From a virus (taxonomy: Duplodnaviria; Heunggongvirae; Uroviricota; Caudoviricetes), in the IMG/VR virus record IMGVR_UViG_2778261223_000007, positions 12,132 through 76,131 of that record: a stretch of 64,000 bases of DNA, one strand, 5' to 3'. How positions within the stretch are numbered: the stretch's first letter is position 1; each line of letters begins with the position of its first letter. The position numbers and the translations under genes are program-made. Below are positions 1,954 through 61,322 of the stretch, one piece after another. The notes below the pieces were generated by a model. That model did no database searches. It was not told the origin of the DNA and was given only the letters and a program-made list of their open reading frames with translations.

Positions 1954-2328
1954 ATGCTTTATGAAATAGACGCAAGACTTCAAACGAATGAGAGCGGTGT
2001 CATTATTGCAGAAGGAAGTTCCGCAGCATGGATGGCCCGACTTGACGAGTGGCTACGAACCCCTGAAGGGAGTGTTTATGGTTTACCCTCTTGGGGGAAT
2101 CCAATGGAAGAATTTAAGCATGAACCATTCGGCTCTGAAACTTCGCACATAGTTGAAGTGGCTATTGAAGGGAGAATGATGAAAAAACTACGACAAGACT
2201 TGCCAGGTTTGGATGTGCAGGGGATTCGTTGCACATCAATTTCTGAAGATTCTTTATTAATTAGTTTTTATGCGAAAGGTGGGAGCATGGATATTGTTAT
2301 GCAGAAATCAAGTGGGGTGGGCGCGTGA
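1954..2328 (+). CDS. small baseplate/tail morphogenesis protein (PmgA position)
   Basis: 124-aa ORF packed between sit and the bplA-like gene; its stop overlaps the next start (GTGA). Confidence 0.45.
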   Translation: MLYEIDARLQTNESGVIIAEGSSAAWMARLDEWLRTPEGSVYGLPSWGNPMEEFKHEPFGSETSHIVEVAIEGRMMKKLRQDLPGLDVQGIRCTSISEDSLLISFYAKGGSMDIVMQKSSGVGA

Positions 2329-3755
2329 CGATTACAGAATTACTGGACAAATTTAACGCCAAGTTAAATGAAAACACATGGTGGTCACGATTTGTAAATA
2401 GTCAGTTTGTGCAGATGCACGCTATATTCGGATCACAGCTTATTTATATTGCCCGTACATTTGCAAGCCGCGGCCTCACTGAGGGACTTATTTCAACGGC
2501 TACGCGCCGCTCAAGTATTTTAGCGGTTGCTGAAGACCGTAGCTACGTAGGGCGATTTGTTAGTGCTTCATACGGAACAACGTCTATAACCAATAAAACT
2601 GATCGGGATATTACGTTACCAGCCGGGGCTGAATTGCTTGCCAATGACCAAACACCTTTGGCAATTATTAACAGTGTTGTAATTCCTGCTGGAGGAACTG
2701 TTTCTGGCGTAGAAACTAAACAGCATGAAGCTGTTAGCGTTACATTTGATATTGAGAAGGAAACTTTATTTCTGACATTGTTGCTTTCCAGAGAATTAAC
2801 AAAAGAAGTCTCTAGCCTGGATGTTTATGTTATTACAGATGGCGTAGAAGAAAAATGGACATATAACCCATTATTTAGAATGTCCAGAGACAAGAGTAAG
2901 CACTATTCATTGGCATATAAACCTACAGAACAACTTGGAGTCAAGTTTGGTGATGGTTCTATGGGTATGATGCCTCCAGCAGGCTGTCAGGTTCGAATCG
3001 ATGTTATGGCTAGCCTTGGCGACTATACTTTGGCTGAAGGACAAAAGTTAGAACCGGCTGGAAATATCGCTCAATATGTGGAGTCACTAGAGTTTAAAAC
3101 TGATTCGATCATTACCGGTGGTAGTGGTATGGAAACTACAGAAGAAACTCGAAATCGTGCTCAGTATTATGTTGCATACGATGAACAAGTGGTATGGGGC
3201 GGTGATTATCGCCAATTCATTCAGAATGTTGTTCATGGAACTTCATGGTTGAACGTTTGGGGCGAAGCGTTGCAAGAGAAAATAACTGGGTTTGACGTTC
3301 GAAACATCAACAAGATTTTCTTTTGCGGACATAAGCCAGGTGTAAGCCAGGCTCAGCTAAAATCAGAAATACTGAAAGCTCTAGAGAATGTTCCAAATGA
3401 GTTGAACAAGCGGTTTGAGTATGTAGATACAAATGAACAACCATTTACTATAATATTTACAGGTATTGCACGTAAAAATGTTCTGATAGACGACGCTCAA
3501 AATGCTATTAAAGCAGCGTTGGAAGAAAATTTTGGTCGTGATTCGTCATCATTCAGTTTATTACTACAGAGTGATGATGATTCTCAGCAATGTTATGCAC
3601 AGGTAAAAGTTAAAGATATTTGGCGAGTAATAGAGTCGCTGGATATGTTTCTCTCTTATGACATAACAATACAAAATATGAAAGATGCAGTTTACTTTAA
3701 TGACTTCATTTATCTTGACGTGAAATCTTCAACGTTCAGCATTTCTTACCCGTAA
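2325..3755 (+). CDS. bplA: baseplate protein, BplA-like
   Basis: 476-aa ORF with a GTG start overlapping the upstream stop. Size and position match P1 BplA; no catalytic motif checked. Confidence 0.55.
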   Translation: MTITELLDKFNAKLNENTWWSRFVNSQFVQMHAIFGSQLIYIARTFASRGLTEGLISTATRRSSILAVAEDRSYVGRFVSASYGTTSITNKTDRDITLPAGAELLANDQTPLAIINSVVIPAGGTVSGVETKQHEAVSVTFDIEKETLFLTLLLSRELTKEVSSLDVYVITDGVEEKWTYNPLFRMSRDKSKHYSLAYKPTEQLGVKFGDGSMGMMPPAGCQVRIDVMASLGDYTLAEGQKLEPAGNIAQYVESLEFKTDSIITGGSGMETTEETRNRAQYYVAYDEQVVWGGDYRQFIQNVVHGTSWLNVWGEALQEKITGFDVRNINKIFFCGHKPGVSQAQLKSEILKALENVPNELNKRFEYVDTNEQPFTIIFTGIARKNVLIDDAQNAIKAALEENFGRDSSSFSLLLQSDDDSQQCYAQVKVKDIWRVIESLDMFLSYDITIQNMKDAVYFNDFIYLDVKSSTFSISYP

Positions 3756-3765
3756 TGAGGTTAGC

Positions 3766-4611
3766 ATGAAAGATAATTGGCTTAAGGAACGATTAACTAA
3801 AGTAAAACAGGATTCACATCTCTGGAGTGCATTTATAGACGCTTTACAGGATGTCTGGAATGAGGCAGTAGAACCAATATTAACAAGAATAAGTAACAGA
3901 AAATCCTTCTTCACTATGGACAGTGAGGACATGGATGCCCGCATTGCTGAATACGGGCGTTTTTTCGTTATCACTGAAAAAGATAAGGCTCGTAGGCCAA
4001 TGCTGCTGGCACAACGTTTAGATGAAGTGCACTTTAAAGGCACTATCTTGCCAATTGAGCAGACATTCTGGCGTGAATTCGGTTGTATTCCTGTTAGTTG
4101 GGAACCGCTGTATGCACCTGTAAATATAGAAAAACACCCCTATGGTTCATATTTTGCGACCGAAATAGAAATACCTACGGCACAGGCTCAATTCGGTGAG
4201 TTCTTCCTGACATCAAGGGGGCTGGTCGTTGTTGATCAGAACAAGCTATATCGCTCATATGGAGAGCAGGATAAAGAAGCCGCTGTACAGAAATTGTTAT
4301 CTGACTTCGAAACAGTAATAGCCCCTTTATTGCCATTGCATATTGTTTTTGATGGCGTCTCGTTTCGGCTTAGTGCTGTATTCCCTGAAGTGGCAGAAAT
4401 ACTAAATTGCTTGTCTACGGATGTTTCGGTAATTGAAGGTGTTTATGTTACTGAGAGTATGGCTGATATGCTATCCCGTAGTGATACCTCCTGCCAGGTA
4501 GACAATATTTCTCTTAACGCCATACCGAACCGAACGGCAGAAAAGCAATTACATCTTGATGTAACCCCACTCGATGCGTGGCCTTTGGATTACCACCTTC
4601 AACCTGTTTAA
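3766..4611 (+). CDS. baseplate/tail protein (P1 gene 16 position)
   Basis: 281-aa ORF, co-directional, 10 nt after the bplA-like stop. Call is from synteny only. Confidence 0.45.
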   Translation: MKDNWLKERLTKVKQDSHLWSAFIDALQDVWNEAVEPILTRISNRKSFFTMDSEDMDARIAEYGRFFVITEKDKARRPMLLAQRLDEVHFKGTILPIEQTFWREFGCIPVSWEPLYAPVNIEKHPYGSYFATEIEIPTAQAQFGEFFLTSRGLVVVDQNKLYRSYGEQDKEAAVQKLLSDFETVIAPLLPLHIVFDGVSFRLSAVFPEVAEILNCLSTDVSVIEGVYVTESMADMLSRSDTSCQVDNISLNAIPNRTAEKQLHLDVTPLDAWPLDYHLQPV

Positions 4612-59429: not shown

Positions 59430-59451
59430 GCCCCGGCCTGTCCGGGGCTTT
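59430..59451 (+). terminator. terminator hairpin
   Basis: GCCCCGG-CCTGT-CCGGGGC followed by TTTA. Sequence-related to the terminator at 23224. Confidence 0.6.
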
Positions 59452-59480
59452 AACTACTAAATAACCGGATTCTCCGCACG

Positions 59481-59765
59481 ATGAAGAAAATAGATTTCAC
59501 TTACTCTGCTGCCACAATCCAGCGACGTTTCAGTCTCATAAGGGAAGTGGAACTATCAAAAAACTGCTATCAAATTCTACTGGATGAAGAGTTTTCACTG
59601 ATGGTTATAGCAGAAAAATTGGCTATGCCGAATGACCGGCACAAGGTCATAGCCAGCCTGGATCTGGTGACAAACAGATACTGGGAATACGAGGAACTAC
59701 TTGAAGTTGGCTTGATACGCGAGATGATAGAACAGGCTGTTCCCCTCCACTTACAGCAACCATAA
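59481..59765 (+). CDS. hypothetical protein (AT-rich island)
   Basis: 94 aa with no motif recognised. Confidence 0.45.
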   Translation: MKKIDFTYSAATIQRRFSLIREVELSKNCYQILLDEEFSLMVIAEKLAMPNDRHKVIASLDLVTNRYWEYEELLEVGLIREMIEQAVPLHLQQP

Positions 59766-59901
59766 TTGAAAGATCTTAACGATAGTCTGCCACGAATAGT
59801 TACTTCCACTGCCTAAAGTTATTTAATTGCATTACAAAGTGTAAATTAGTAACATTAGAATCTCACACAGCACTATAACTATATGTTTTTTATGTAAAAG
59901 G

Positions 59902-60261
59902 ATGATAATCGTGGCTACTAAAATTAAACTTGAAAACCCTCAAACTGGCGAATCAATCACCGGTTTTTATGGTTTTTCCTGGACTACATTCTTGTTTGGT
60001 GCTTTTCCAGCTTTGTTCAGGAAAGACTTTATAACTTTTATTGGGGTATTTGTAGTGATGCTGATACTGGCATTCCTCACAGCCGGAATTGGCCCGTGGA
60101 TTGCCTCATTTATCTGGGCGTTCATGTATAATAAATATTTCACCGTAAATAAGATAAAACAAGGCTTCATTTTTGCTGGTTCTCACACAGAAAATGAGTT
60201 GGCTGCTAGCAAGCTAGGATTGTCATTAAATCAAAACAACTGCAAAACTATTACCGAGTAA
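59902..60261 (+). CDS. two-TM membrane protein, DUF2628-like (alternative GTG start 59911)
   Basis: GFYGFSWTTFLFGAFPALFRKDF...FLTAGIGPWIASFIWAFMY. Confidence 0.5.
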   Translation: MIIVATKIKLENPQTGESITGFYGFSWTTFLFGAFPALFRKDFITFIGVFVVMLILAFLTAGIGPWIASFIWAFMYNKYFTVNKIKQGFIFAGSHTENELAASKLGLSLNQNNCKTITE

Positions 60262-60300
60262 AGCCAAAAAGCAGGCTTAATAGTAAGCCTGCTATGTCAA

Positions 60301-61134
60301 TCACGAATCTCTCTGACAATTCAGAAACATAAACGCCCGCTTGTCTGTTAAATCCGTAACATAATACTCTCTCATGCCTGTAGGTTTTATTCTACGAGCA
60401 TATACAAACTTATGAACTGGTTGTTTTTCCCCATAACTTACATCAGTCCTAAATTCATCAACCACGCTACCATCTTTTTCAGTTTCCTTTCTCACTAGCT
60501 GATTTTCTAATACAGGCTTTGATTCGTCCATGCCACTAAAAGCATCCTGACCTGTGCTGTTGCCTCGGTTTCCGCGTGGCAAATCCCATGAAAAATAAGT
60601 GCCATAGTCAGTAATCACACGATCCCATGTTCCGGAATCCCCCATATAGTTAGAACGCTCCCCCTTGTAAGTTACAGCCACCTTACAGGCATACGTTTCA
60701 CCATTATTTTTTTTATCATGTCCAGCCATGCTTGCAGGAGTTGCAGGGGAATTATGAATAGATGCGCTTACATCATCTTGCGTTAATTTCTCAACTGGAG
60801 CAAATTCATATATGGGTGTGCCGAGGCTATTTAAATATAACTTATATCTAACCCTAAGCGCACTTCCATCTGAGAATTCATACGTTCCCAGGCATTGGAG
60901 CTTATTGTTTTCTCTTATCTCATTGATCTGATTATAAGCATCAATTACAGAGATTGCTTCCTGCTCGTCCTTCAGCAGTTCATTATAATCATCGATTAAC
61001 ATCTGCCTAGTTTTAGGGGAATTGCAGTCAATTTTGCTAAAATCATAAGCAAAGGTGAGTGTGGGAACAAAAAGAGCAACAACAGTAGCTAGTATTGTTG
61101 AGGAAAATCTTTTTCCATTTTTTATAAAAAACAT
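60301..61134 (-). CDS. secreted protein of unknown function
   Basis: 277 aa from ATG 61134, 9 nt after GGAG (the ORF track starts at 61212). Signal peptide MFFIKNGKRFSSTILATVVALFVPTLTFA|YD. Confidence 0.55.
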   Translation of the reverse strand: MFFIKNGKRFSSTILATVVALFVPTLTFAYDFSKIDCNSPKTRQMLIDDYNELLKDEQEAISVIDAYNQINEIRENNKLQCLGTYEFSDGSALRVRYKLYLNSLGTPIYEFAPVEKLTQDDVSASIHNSPATPASMAGHDKKNNGETYACKVAVTYKGERSNYMGDSGTWDRVITDYGTYFSWDLPRGNRGNSTGQDAFSGMDESKPVLENQLVRKETEKDGSVVDEFRTDVSYGEKQPVHKFVYARRIKPTGMREYYVTDLTDKRAFMFLNCQRDS

Positions 61135-61322
61135 TTCATTAACTCCATACCTTACCATCTTAGCCGCGAGCGCGGTCCCTAAAACCATTAACTTCACTGC
61201 ACCGTCCTTCATGCAATCAAAATGACTTTTATGTTATAAAAATAATCAGCCAAATCAACATGATTTAGGCCAAATTTCTGTCAAAAAATAAAATCCACAA
61301 AAAGTGGTTGACACTATTTTGG

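What the first reader, a model, noticed from the sequence alone, without database searches (positions are those of the whole stretch)
59452..61260. AT-rich three-gene island after the second ant module: cytoplasmic 94-aa protein, 2-TM protein, and an oppositely oriented secreted 277-aa protein
The island lies between the ant-2 terminator and the late-promoter region. Its base composition is clearly AT-rich by eye, its gene orientations are mixed, and none of its genes resembles a core P1 function that I can recognise.

The 2-TM protein (GFSWTTFLFGAFPALFRKDF) resembles DUF2628-type membrane proteins. The secreted protein has a clean signal peptide and no recognisable domain. Envelope-located prophage cargo like this is typical of superinfection exclusion or host-surface modification.
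Basis: inference. Interest (0 to 1): 0.5.

Follow-up and report, generated by a model that had tools for sequence, protein, structure and literature searches.

The report
Variable envelope-protein cargo island in phage D6
This AT-rich stretch of phage-plasmid D6 is a real, swappable accessory-gene cassette; its main product is an exported two-domain protein partly related to P1 SimB, so it is largely ordinary, already-annotated prophage cargo of untested function.

Summary
The window is Escherichia phage D6 (100% identity). Three real genes lie at 59481-61134 in the lowest-GC stretch of the window (39.0% against 47.3%).

- The 94-aa protein is a PmgF homologue.
- The N-terminal domain of the 277-aa exported protein is a SimB homologue (52% identity). 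The D6 GenBank record already says both.

New here:
- "SimB" in D6 is a fusion: signal peptide, cystatin-like SimB domain, Ser/Pro-rich linker, and a strongly conserved disulfide-bracketed beta-barrel (pLDDT 91).
- The profile built on the fusion protein finds only 31 representatives among 1.84 billion proteins, split between SimB-like and barrel-bearing proteins.
- The barrel also occurs alone or behind other N-domains.
- SimC, the P1 superimmunity determinant, and SimA are absent.

The membrane protein belongs to a widespread proteobacterial family. Its DUF2628 match is sub-threshold only.

The slot between ant and mat is a cassette hot spot. Only 53 of 121 D6-like plasmids carry this island, and others carry unrelated exported proteins. 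The P1 homologues are non-essential.

The best reading is dispensable envelope cargo, plausibly a sim-like exclusion or protection factor. That function is inferred, not shown.

The parts
59430..59448 (+). GC-rich hairpin just after the ant (Rha-type anti-repressor) stop codon. It is a weak-U-tract terminator candidate and marks the left edge of the island.
   Evidence: Folds at -15 kcal/mol, z -2.8. The consensus terminator scan did not call it because it has only 4 T in the tail. One class of relatives loses or gains homology at about 59443.
59481..59765 (+). PmgF-family small acidic soluble protein (94 aa; D6 orf81). It belongs more to the conserved left flank than to the swapped cassette.
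   Evidence: Pairwise 42% identity over 71 aa with P1 PmgF, E 2e-14. Matches phrog_7349 at E 6e-53. No Pfam or NCBIfam hit. GC is 43%. It is retained beside other cassettes in L003 and L005, with a recombination junction at about 59706 inside its 3' end. PGAP labels it 'transcriptional regulator'.
59766..59910 (.). Very AT-rich intergenic spacer (29.7% GC). It presumably holds the promoter of the membrane-protein gene, but no consensus site was found.
   Evidence: Composition. The promoter scan found nothing here.
59911..60261 (+). Small inner-membrane protein (116 aa from GTG 59911, or 119 aa from ATG 59902; D6 orf80). It belongs to a widespread proteobacterial and phage family with the invariant motif GFSWTT..FG..PALFR.D.
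   Evidence: Matches phrog_4915 at E 3e-47. There are 183 homologue clusters, many chromosomal. The gene stands alone in non-phage chromosomal contexts. Homologues occur in jumbo phages such as 121Q ('HrgC', 54%) and in Lactobacillus phages.
60270..60293 (-). Hairpin between the convergent genes. It acts as an intrinsic terminator for the minus-strand gene, where a U-run follows. On the plus strand it is a hairpin without a U-run.
   Evidence: Terminator scan. Folds at -15.3 kcal/mol (minus strand) and -15.9 kcal/mol (plus strand), z -3.7 and -4.3.
60301..61134 (-). Exported two-domain protein precursor (277 aa; D6 orf79, annotated 'similar to P1 simB').
   Evidence: ORF. Matches phrog_13054 over residues 27-303 of the long ORF, E 6e-192. 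RefSeq calls the same 834-nt CDS in relatives. Only 11 clusters at 90% identity were found among 5.8 billion.
61048..61134 (-). Sec-type signal peptide (aa 1-29: MFFIKNGKRFSSTILATVVALFVPTLTFA, then YD). There is no lipobox cysteine.
   Evidence: Read from the sequence and the hydropathy profile. No dedicated signal-peptide predictor was available.
60796..61047 (-). SimB-like domain (aa 30-113) with a conserved Cys pair (C37/C81). The predicted fold is cystatin-like, one helix packed on a 4-stranded sheet.
60700..60795 (-). Low-complexity Ser/Pro/Ala/Thr-rich linker (aa 114-145). Its length varies between alleles.
   Evidence: Indels in alignment A2. pLDDT is below 50.
60304..60699 (-). Conserved C-terminal beta-barrel domain (aa 146-277), bracketed by invariant cysteines C150 and C273. 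It contains invariant loops YFSWDLPRGNRGNSTGQD and VYARRIKP.G.REYYVTD.
61135..61212 (-). In-frame 26-codon upstream extension (MKDGAVKLMVLGTALAAKMVRYGVNE). Its first roughly 19 codons are shared with unrelated alternative cassettes, where they form the start of another protein's signal peptide. This is a mosaic junction.
   Evidence: D6 and L003 are 95% identical from 61440 down to 61155 and unrelated beyond. The alternative 207-aa protein starts MKDGVVKLRVLGTALAAMLGC....

Best explanation
The segment is a horizontally exchanged accessory-gene cassette. It sits in a recombination hot spot of D6-type phage-plasmids, between the icd-ant immunity-type operon and the mat gene.

It encodes three proteins:
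1. A PmgF-family small cytoplasmic protein, which belongs to the conserved left flank.
2. A small inner-membrane protein captured from a widespread proteobacterial family.
3. Convergently, a Sec-exported soluble periplasmic protein. This has a SimB-like cystatin-fold domain, a flexible linker and a conserved disulfide-closed beta-barrel.

None of the three is needed to build virions.

The most likely role of the exported protein is in the envelope of the lysogen. It may work with the membrane protein, in the way T4 pairs Imm and Sp. It would bind, through one or both domains, a periplasmically exposed protein of an incoming P1/D6-type phage or another envelope-attacking protein, giving sim-like exclusion or protection. 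The conserved barrel would supply the constant function, and the exchangeable N-domain would supply specificity.

Shown here: the genes, their homologies, the composition, the domain architecture, the predicted folds, and variable presence among relatives.

Inferred: export and disulfides, expression in the lysogen, any exclusion activity, and any partnership between the two envelope proteins.
For: - **Identity and annotation.** The window matches D6 at 100%. orf81 is annotated pmgF-like and orf79 simB-like.
- **Composition.** GC is 39.0% against 47.3%, in the lowest 0.24% of windows.
- **Homologies.** PmgF at E 2e-14. SimB at 52% identity, E 4e-26.
- **Export.** The precursor has signal-peptide features and two conserved Cys pairs.
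- **Folds.** The N-domain is cystatin-like. The C-domain is a confident beta-barrel.
- **Modularity.** The same barrel is found behind a different N-domain (P0009-P0011, P0132, P0142), behind a membrane anchor (P0135), or alone (P0133, P0148, P0150).
- **Hot spot.** 121 D6-like plasmids match the flanks, but only 53 have the island. Alternatives are two unrelated exported proteins (L003), a barrel protein with another N-domain and no membrane gene (L004), and an extra dCTP-deaminase-like cassette (L005). Sharp junctions lie at 61155 and 61308.
- **Co-occurrence.** The membrane gene and the SimB-type fusion are each present in 56 D6-like plasmids, and at least 53 of these carry them contiguously.
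- **P1 homologues are dispensable.** In P1, pmgF and simA, simB and simC are non-essential (PMC10695390). The sim and rlf/pmgF loci are low-GC variable hot spots in P1-like plasmids (PMC6906374; PMC9603915).
- **Prior independent note.** A study of D6-like plasmids recorded the simB homologue, the absence of simA and simC, and divergence around simB (PMC6799933).
Against: - No experiment links SimB, or any homologue of these three proteins, to exclusion.
- SimC, annotated as the superimmunity protein in the P1 record, and SimA are absent from D6.
- PADLOC has no match.
- No consensus sigma-70 promoter was found for either envelope gene, so expression in the lysogen is unproven.
- The membrane-protein family is mostly chromosomal, as a stand-alone gene in non-phage contexts. 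That argues against a dedicated anti-phage role for it.
- Island type is not coupled to the allele of the injection transglycosylase sit.
Confidence: 0.5

Rival explanations
1. The exported protein is a host-protective lysogenic-conversion factor rather than a phage-exclusion factor. It would be a periplasmic inhibitor or immunity-like protein against exogenous envelope-damaging proteins such as lysozymes or lytic transglycosylases, colicins, or T6SS effectors.
For: - Stand-alone barrel genes sit among clusters of lipoprotein and exported-protein genes on mobile elements.
Against: - There is no Pfam MliC/PliC match and no PDB sequence match.
- No toxin or effector partner gene lies nearby.
Confidence: 0.2
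2. The three genes share no function. The island is a junkyard of independently captured genes kept by hitch-hiking in a recombination hot spot. The membrane protein is simply a transduced chromosomal gene.
For: - Each gene has a different phylogenetic distribution: PmgF only in P1/D6-type elements, the membrane protein widespread in chromosomes, and the fusion very rare.
- The genes are separable in relatives. L004 has a barrel protein but neither of the other two. L007 has the fusion without the membrane gene. L003 has PmgF with another cassette.
Against: - All three ORFs are intact.
- The barrel shows many invariant positions across diverged relatives, consistent with purifying selection.
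- The membrane gene and the fusion travel together in at least 53 plasmids at 90-100% identity.
Confidence: 0.25
3. The genes serve virion morphogenesis or lysis, as the historical name pmgF ('putative morphogenetic function') and the neighbouring mat gene and late genes might suggest.
For: - The D6 record names orf81 'putative morphogenetic function protein'.
- The island abuts mat and tail/baseplate genes.
Against: - P1 pmgF and simA, simB and simC are non-essential.
- More than half of D6-like plasmids lack the island or replace it.
- No PHROG structural, lysis or assembly annotation applies.
Confidence: 0.05

Closest known systems
Phage P1 sim (superimmunity) operon simA-simB-simC, next to the immI region
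   Same: - The N-domain of the D6 protein is a clear SimB homologue (52% identity).
- P1 SimA, SimB and SimC all start with signal-peptide-like sequences, as the D6 protein does.
- Both loci are low-GC, variable among relatives and adjacent to the icd-ant immunity operon.
- Both are non-essential.
   Different: - D6 has no SimC, which the P1 record annotates as the superimmunity protein, and no SimA.
- Its SimB domain is fused to a beta-barrel that P1 lacks.
- The locus lies downstream of ant and divergent from mat. In P1 it lies upstream of c4.
- SimB's own role is unknown ('putative accessory function' by position).
Phage T4 Imm and Sp superinfection-exclusion pair
   Same: Both pair a small inner-membrane protein with an envelope-located protein encoded by a phage. 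In T4 the pair blocks DNA entry of related phages (PMC13128918). That Sp inhibits the tail lysozyme is from my own knowledge of Lu and Henning's work.
   Different: - No sequence or fold relationship was established.
- The D6 exported protein is soluble and has two domains.
- The D6 membrane protein belongs to a family that is mainly chromosomal.
- This is an analogy only.
Prophage 'moron' or accessory cassettes in AT-rich hot spots of P1-like phage-plasmids (res-mod, sim, rlf loci)
   Same: Both show low GC relative to the backbone, sharp mosaic junctions, their own terminator, and presence or absence and replacement among close relatives.
   Different: The cargo here is envelope proteins of unknown function. 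It is not restriction, resistance or toxin genes. No autonomous promoter could be identified.
DUF2628 (PF10947) small membrane proteins
   Same: Both are short proteins with a conserved aromatic/Gly/Pro segment ending in basic residues, followed by a strongly hydrophobic helix. Some UniRef entries of the family carry the DUF2628 name.
   Different: The D6 protein does not hit the Pfam model at E<=1. Relatives hit only below threshold (10 of 36, best E 0.055), and DUF6693 scores slightly better (13 of 36, best E 5.8e-4).
MliC/PliC/PhiA-type periplasmic lysozyme-inhibitor beta-barrels, and cystatin-fold inhibitors or immunity proteins (for example colicin M immunity protein)
   Same: They share fold class and compartment: small disulfide-containing periplasmic domains.

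Membership tests
P1 sim superimmunity operon | Presence of a SimC homologue (the protein annotated as conferring superimmunity) | tested here: not met
   BLASTP of the D6 protein against SimC gave E 0.94. tblastn of SimC against the window gave E >= 9.7. tblastn of SimC against all phage records hit only P1 and close relatives, not D6. PMC6799933 reports the same for a D6-like plasmid.
P1 sim superimmunity operon | Presence of a SimB homologue | tested here: met
   52% identity over 84 aa, E 4e-26. It covers only the N-terminal domain, aa 30-113.
P1 sim superimmunity operon | Presence of SimA | tested here: not met
   tblastn of SimA against the window gave only E > 1.
P1 sim superimmunity operon | Confers exclusion of superinfecting P1-type phage after adsorption | not testable with these tools
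   Needs plating, adsorption and DNA-entry assays.
PmgF family (P1 gp053; phrog_7349) | Significant sequence similarity over most of the length | tested here: met
   42% identity over 71 aa, E 2e-14. phrog_7349 at E 6e-53 over 1-93. tblastn hits P1 and P7 pmgF.
DUF2628 (Pfam PF10947) | Score above the Pfam gathering threshold | tested here: not met
   No Pfam family at E<=1 for the D6 protein. Only 10 of 36 relatives hit, all sub-threshold, best E 0.055.
DUF2628 (Pfam PF10947) | Remote homology by profile-profile or fold comparison | not tested
UniRef labels on some relatives hint at it.
MliC/PliC lysozyme-inhibitor family | HMM match or family motifs | tested here: not met
   No Pfam hit. No PDB sequence hit for the barrel profile at E<=0.1.
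MliC/PliC lysozyme-inhibitor family | Same fold with a discriminating score | tested here: inconclusive
Cystatin-like fold (SimB domain) | Helix packed on an antiparallel sheet, with top structural neighbours being cystatins | tested here: met
Prophage accessory ('moron'-type) cassette | Atypical composition relative to the backbone | tested here: met
   39.0% against 47.3% GC, about 3 sd below the mean.
Prophage accessory ('moron'-type) cassette | Present in some close relatives, and absent or replaced in others at the same site | tested here: met
   53 of 121 D6-like plasmids carry it. Alternatives are in L003-L006, with junctions.
Prophage accessory ('moron'-type) cassette | Own promoter and terminator | tested here: inconclusive
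   A terminator hairpin is present at 60270-60293. No consensus promoter was found.
Known anti-phage defence systems (PADLOC) | HMM match to a catalogued defence protein | tested here: not met
   No credible hit for any of the three proteins. The single hit at E<=1 was MTase_II, E 0.034, for the 94-aa protein.

The most novel reading that the evidence does not exclude
The conserved disulfide-closed beta-barrel defines a small, undescribed family of modular periplasmic proteins on phage-plasmids and other mobile elements. The profile built on the fusion protein finds 31 representatives among 1.84 billion proteins, split between SimB-like and barrel-bearing proteins. In this reading a constant barrel is combined with interchangeable recognition domains: SimB-like cystatin fold, a helical domain, or a membrane anchor. 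Together they would form a new class of superinfection-exclusion or envelope-protection factors. This would also give P1 SimB its first mechanistic context, as a stand-alone recognition module.
Probability: 0.25. Interest if true: 0.55.

Novelty: new variant of a known kind. Interest (0 to 1): 0.3.

Why it matters
Phage-plasmids of the P1 and D6 types are common in clinical and livestock E. coli and Salmonella, and they spread resistance genes. What decides which phage-plasmid can enter a cell that already carries one is poorly understood. P1 sim has not been studied mechanistically for decades.

If the D6 fusion is an exclusion or protection factor, it would show that SimB-like domains are exchangeable recognition modules attached to a conserved barrel. 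It would also offer a tractable two-gene system for studying blocks to DNA entry in the periplasm.

If it is not, this is one more variable cargo slot with hypothetical envelope proteins. That is useful mainly for typing D6-like plasmids.

Tried and rejected
1. **Barrel related to SimC (which would make the fusion a SimB-SimC fusion).** Rejected. BLASTP gave E 0.94.
2. **Alternative cassette proteins (207 aa and 130 aa) related to SimA, SimB, SimC or the D6 protein.** No similarity.
3. **D6 arrangement arose by internal deletion of the 207-aa gene seen in L007 and L003.** The DNA after the 61155 junction does not align with the 3' end of that gene. Not supported.
4. **Rosetta-stone link between the D6 membrane protein and the membrane N-terminus of barrel protein P0135.** hhalign probability was 5.7%. 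Rejected.
5. **Neighbours of the stand-alone barrel gene in L013 homologous to the alternative N-domains.** phmmer found nothing.
6. **Co-variation of island type with the allele of the injection transglycosylase sit.** This was prompted by PMC6799933. The island occurs with both the >=97% and the roughly 88% sit alleles. There is no exclusive coupling, and the test is confounded by relatedness.
7. **P1 late-promoter-like box AAATGACTT at 61220.** Two copies occur in the window against 1.4 expected. Not evidence.
8. **PADLOC, NCBIfam and Pfam on all three proteins.** No usable hits.
9. **PDB sequence searches for the barrel profile and for the PmgF-like protein.** Nothing.
10. **Viral structure library.** Only uncharacterised phage proteins, TM about 0.55.
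11. **afdb50 library.** Not available.
12. **Source papers.** The D6 genome paper and the P1 genome paper were not held in the library.
Full report
**Identity of the window**

The segment 59300-61400 is 100% identical to Escherichia phage D6 (MF356679 / NC_050154), a P1-related phage-plasmid. It is also 96-100% identical to many roughly 90-kb non-mobilizable E. coli and Salmonella plasmids.

In the D6 record the three genes are annotated as follows:
- orf81: "similar to P1 gene pmgF".
- orf80: hypothetical, "similar to p492 of phage 121Q".
- orf79: [quoted passage not shown].

They lie between orf82 (a Rha-type anti-repressor downstream of icd) and orf78 (mat).

**Check of the observation**

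- The 94-aa product (59481-59765, +) has no hydrophobic segment and pI 5.1.
- The membrane protein most likely starts at GTG 59911, giving 116 aa. An AAGGA lies about 8 nt upstream, and 35 aligned homologues begin MATKI at that point.
- Hydropathy gives one strong transmembrane segment (aa 38-66), flanked by aromatic-rich, moderately hydrophobic stretches. "2-TM" is therefore reasonable but approximate.
- The 277-aa protein (60301-61134, -) has GGAG 8 nt before its ATG. It has a basic n-region, a hydrophobic core and TFA|YD, with no lipobox. The PHROG profile and RefSeq gene calls in relatives start at the same Met.

The island is 39.0% GC against a window mean of 47.3% (sd 2.8). It is among the lowest 0.24% of equal-sized windows. 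The spacer 59766-59910 is 29.7% GC.

A stable hairpin follows ant (-15 kcal/mol), but its U-tract is weak. A second hairpin, 60270-60293, separates the convergent genes and carries a U-run for the minus-strand gene.

**What the genes are**

*PmgF-like protein.* The 94-aa protein is a PmgF homologue: 42% identity over 71 aa, E 2e-14, and phrog_7349. It has no Pfam or NCBIfam hit. PGAP nevertheless names the family "transcriptional regulator". P1 pmgF is non-essential in a genome-wide CRISPRi screen (PMC10695390).

*Membrane protein.* This protein belongs to a well-conserved family with invariant GFSWTT..FG..PALFR.D. There are 183 clusters in the big protein collection.
- Most are chromosomal, in Enterobacterales, Burkholderiales and others.
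- In the chromosomes examined it is a stand-alone gene in non-phage neighbourhoods.
- It also occurs in 121Q-type jumbo phages (about 54% identity) and in Lactobacillus phages.

There is no Pfam hit for the D6 protein. Only 10 of 36 relatives hit, all sub-threshold, and DUF6693 does slightly better.

*Exported protein.* This is the interesting part.
- Residues 30-113 are a clear homologue of P1 SimB (52% identity, E 4e-26), including both cysteines.
- The remaining roughly 160 residues have no similarity to SimC or to anything in Pfam or the PDB.

Relatives show that the C-terminal roughly 130 residues form an independent, strongly conserved domain.
- In P0009, P0010 and P0011 it follows a different N-domain.
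- A profile search of 1.84 billion representatives found only 31 proteins. One group is stand-alone SimB-like exported proteins of 105-120 aa. The other is barrel-containing proteins that stand alone (P0133, P0148, P0150), are fused to helical domains (P0132, P0142), or are fused to a membrane anchor (P0135).
- Two cysteines bracketing the domain are invariant.

Structure prediction gave these results:
- The whole chain scored pLDDT 57.7. The SimB segment was usable at about 73-85 by 10-residue block.
- The C-domain modelled with the wider alignment scored pLDDT 91.2 and pTM 0.86, an all-beta ten-strand barrel.

These fold classes are compatible with a binding or inhibitor role in the periplasm. 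They do not single one out.

**Relation to P1 sim**

P1 encodes SimA, SimB and SimC in a row beside the c4-icd-ant operon. All three begin with signal-peptide-like sequences.
- The P1 record calls SimC "superimmunity" and calls SimA and SimB "putative accessory".
- D6 has no SimC or SimA, either in the window or in the whole record.
- A study of the D6-like plasmid pYU39_89 reported the same (PMC6799933).

The locus therefore cannot be filed as a sim operon. It shares one domain with it.

**The slot is a cassette hot spot**

A 3.8-kb query spanning ant to mat finds 121 plasmids, but only 53 carry the island essentially complete. Per-gene tblastn gives these counts:
- Barrel domain: 59 plasmids. 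56 are at 90% identity or more to the D6 barrel. 3 are at 80-90%, and those inspected have a different N-domain.
- Membrane protein: 56 D6-like plasmids.
- SimB-like domain: 200 plasmids. 56 are D6-type and 144 are P1-type at about 52% identity.

Fetched examples show what else occupies the slot:

| Locus | Plasmid or source | Content of the slot |
|---|---|---|
| L003 | CP032875 | PmgF-like, plus two unrelated exported proteins of 130 and 207 aa |
| L004 | LT906557 | Only a 291-aa barrel protein with the other N-domain |
| L005 | pSL26_91 | The L003 content, plus a three-gene insert including a dCTP-deaminase-like protein (Pfam DCD, E 1e-30) |
| L006 | CP047013 | Membrane gene and fusion, but icd-ant-pmgF missing |
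| L007 | Divergent 88-kb metagenomic element | A 207-like gene and a SimB-barrel fusion in tandem |

Junctions are sharp.
- D6 and L003 are 95% identical from 61440 to 61155 and unrelated beyond.
- D6 and L004 are identical only down to 61308.

The 61155 junction lies 19 codons into an in-frame extension of the D6 gene (MKDGAVKL...). In the alternative cassette those codons are the beginning of the 207-aa protein's signal peptide.

On the left, junctions fall at about 59443 and about 59706. The second is inside the 3' end of the PmgF-like gene. That gene, at 43% GC, therefore belongs more to the conserved flank than to the swapped cassette.

The literature on P1-like plasmids describes the homologous loci in the same way. 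Sim and rlfA-rlfB-pmgF are variable, low-GC hot spots of recent acquisition (PMC9603915; PMC6906374).

**Most likely function**

All variants of the leftward cassette encode exported proteins, as the P1 sim genes do. The genes are dispensable, AT-rich and exchanged between otherwise similar elements. This is the signature of accessory cargo acting at the envelope.

My best reading is as follows. The mature 28-kDa protein is a soluble, disulfide-stabilised periplasmic protein. It binds a periplasmically exposed target, either part of the DNA-delivery apparatus of a superinfecting P1/D6-type phage or another exogenous envelope-attacking protein. The conserved barrel supplies a constant function and the exchangeable N-domain supplies specificity.

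The co-travelling membrane protein might be a partner, by analogy with T4 Imm and Sp (PMC13128918). Its mainly chromosomal, stand-alone distribution argues for caution.

I give about 0.8 to "dispensable envelope cargo in a hot spot". I give about 0.35 to phage exclusion specifically. The reported confidence of 0.5 reflects the combined statement. Nothing here shows expression, export or any phenotype.

**Rival readings**

- Host-protective inhibitor or immunity protein: 0.2.
- Functionally unrelated hitch-hikers: 0.25. This is not exclusive of the main reading.
- Morphogenesis or lysis role: 0.05. It is contradicted by non-essentiality in P1 and by absence from half of the relatives.

**Novelty and score**

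The island, its simB-like and pmgF-like labels and its variability are already in the D6 record and in PMC6799933.

What is added here:
- The two-domain architecture.
- The confident barrel model and its rare, modular family.
- The cystatin-like fold of SimB.
- The explicit absence of SimC.
- The mapping of cassette junctions.

This is a variant of a known kind of feature. It is of moderate-to-low interest (0.3) unless the exclusion function is demonstrated.

Noticed in passing
L005 7711-9703 (pSL26_91, NZ_CP032492), same slot as window 59766-60300: In this D6-like plasmid the slot holds an extra three-gene insert: a 101-aa protein, a 357-aa protein with an HELGH motif, and a dCTP-deaminase-like protein (Pfam DCD, E 1e-30). 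There is no PADLOC hit. It could be a nucleotide-depletion type defence cassette.
   Followed up: partly
L003 2890-3926 and L005 9791-10827; window 61155-61212: The alternative leftward cassette encodes two unrelated exported proteins (207 aa and 130 aa). The 207-aa protein shares its first 17 or so codons, and the upstream DNA, with the in-frame extension of the D6 gene. The cassette junction therefore lies inside a signal-peptide coding region.
   Followed up: yes
L007 5361-6801 (88-kb metagenomic contig, JGI 3300039866): A more divergent D6-like element carries a 207-like gene and a SimB-barrel fusion (56% identity) in tandem, in one orientation. It has no homologue of the membrane gene.
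   Followed up: partly
window 61220-61228 (+): AAATGACTT resembles the -22 box of the P1 late promoter LPsit (AAATGACTA). It lies upstream of mat and overlaps the 5' extension of the leftward ORF. With only 2 copies in the window against 1.4 expected, it carries no statistical weight.
   Followed up: partly
window about 2100-4500: A second stretch of similarly low GC (about 39.5% in 1.8-kb windows) lies near the pmgA/bplA end of the window. Its content was not examined.
   Followed up: no
window 59481-59765: NCBI PGAP names this PmgF-like family 'transcriptional regulator' in many plasmid records. No Pfam or NCBIfam model matches it at E<=1, so the basis of the name is unclear.
   Followed up: partly
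L013 2659-6052 (42-kb Logan contig carrying stand-alone barrel protein P0133): The stand-alone barrel gene sits in a run of at least six consecutive small lipoprotein, exported-protein or membrane-protein genes on what looks like a mobile element. A PF28055 gene is shared with the D6-like contig L007.
   Followed up: partly
L015 835-4617 (D6 sit) against D6-like plasmids: The injection transglycosylase / tape-measure gene sit has at least two allele classes among D6-like plasmids: >=97% identity, and about 88% with an internal replaced segment. Among the plasmids whose cassette type was determined, those with the alternative 207+130 cassette all had the 88% class, but the D6-type island occurs with both.
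   Followed up: partly
L002 7248-8042 (P1 simC): P1 SimC gives a weak sub-threshold Pfam match to tRNA_anti-like (OB-fold, E 0.0011). This may be a lead on the fold of the actual superimmunity protein.
   Followed up: no
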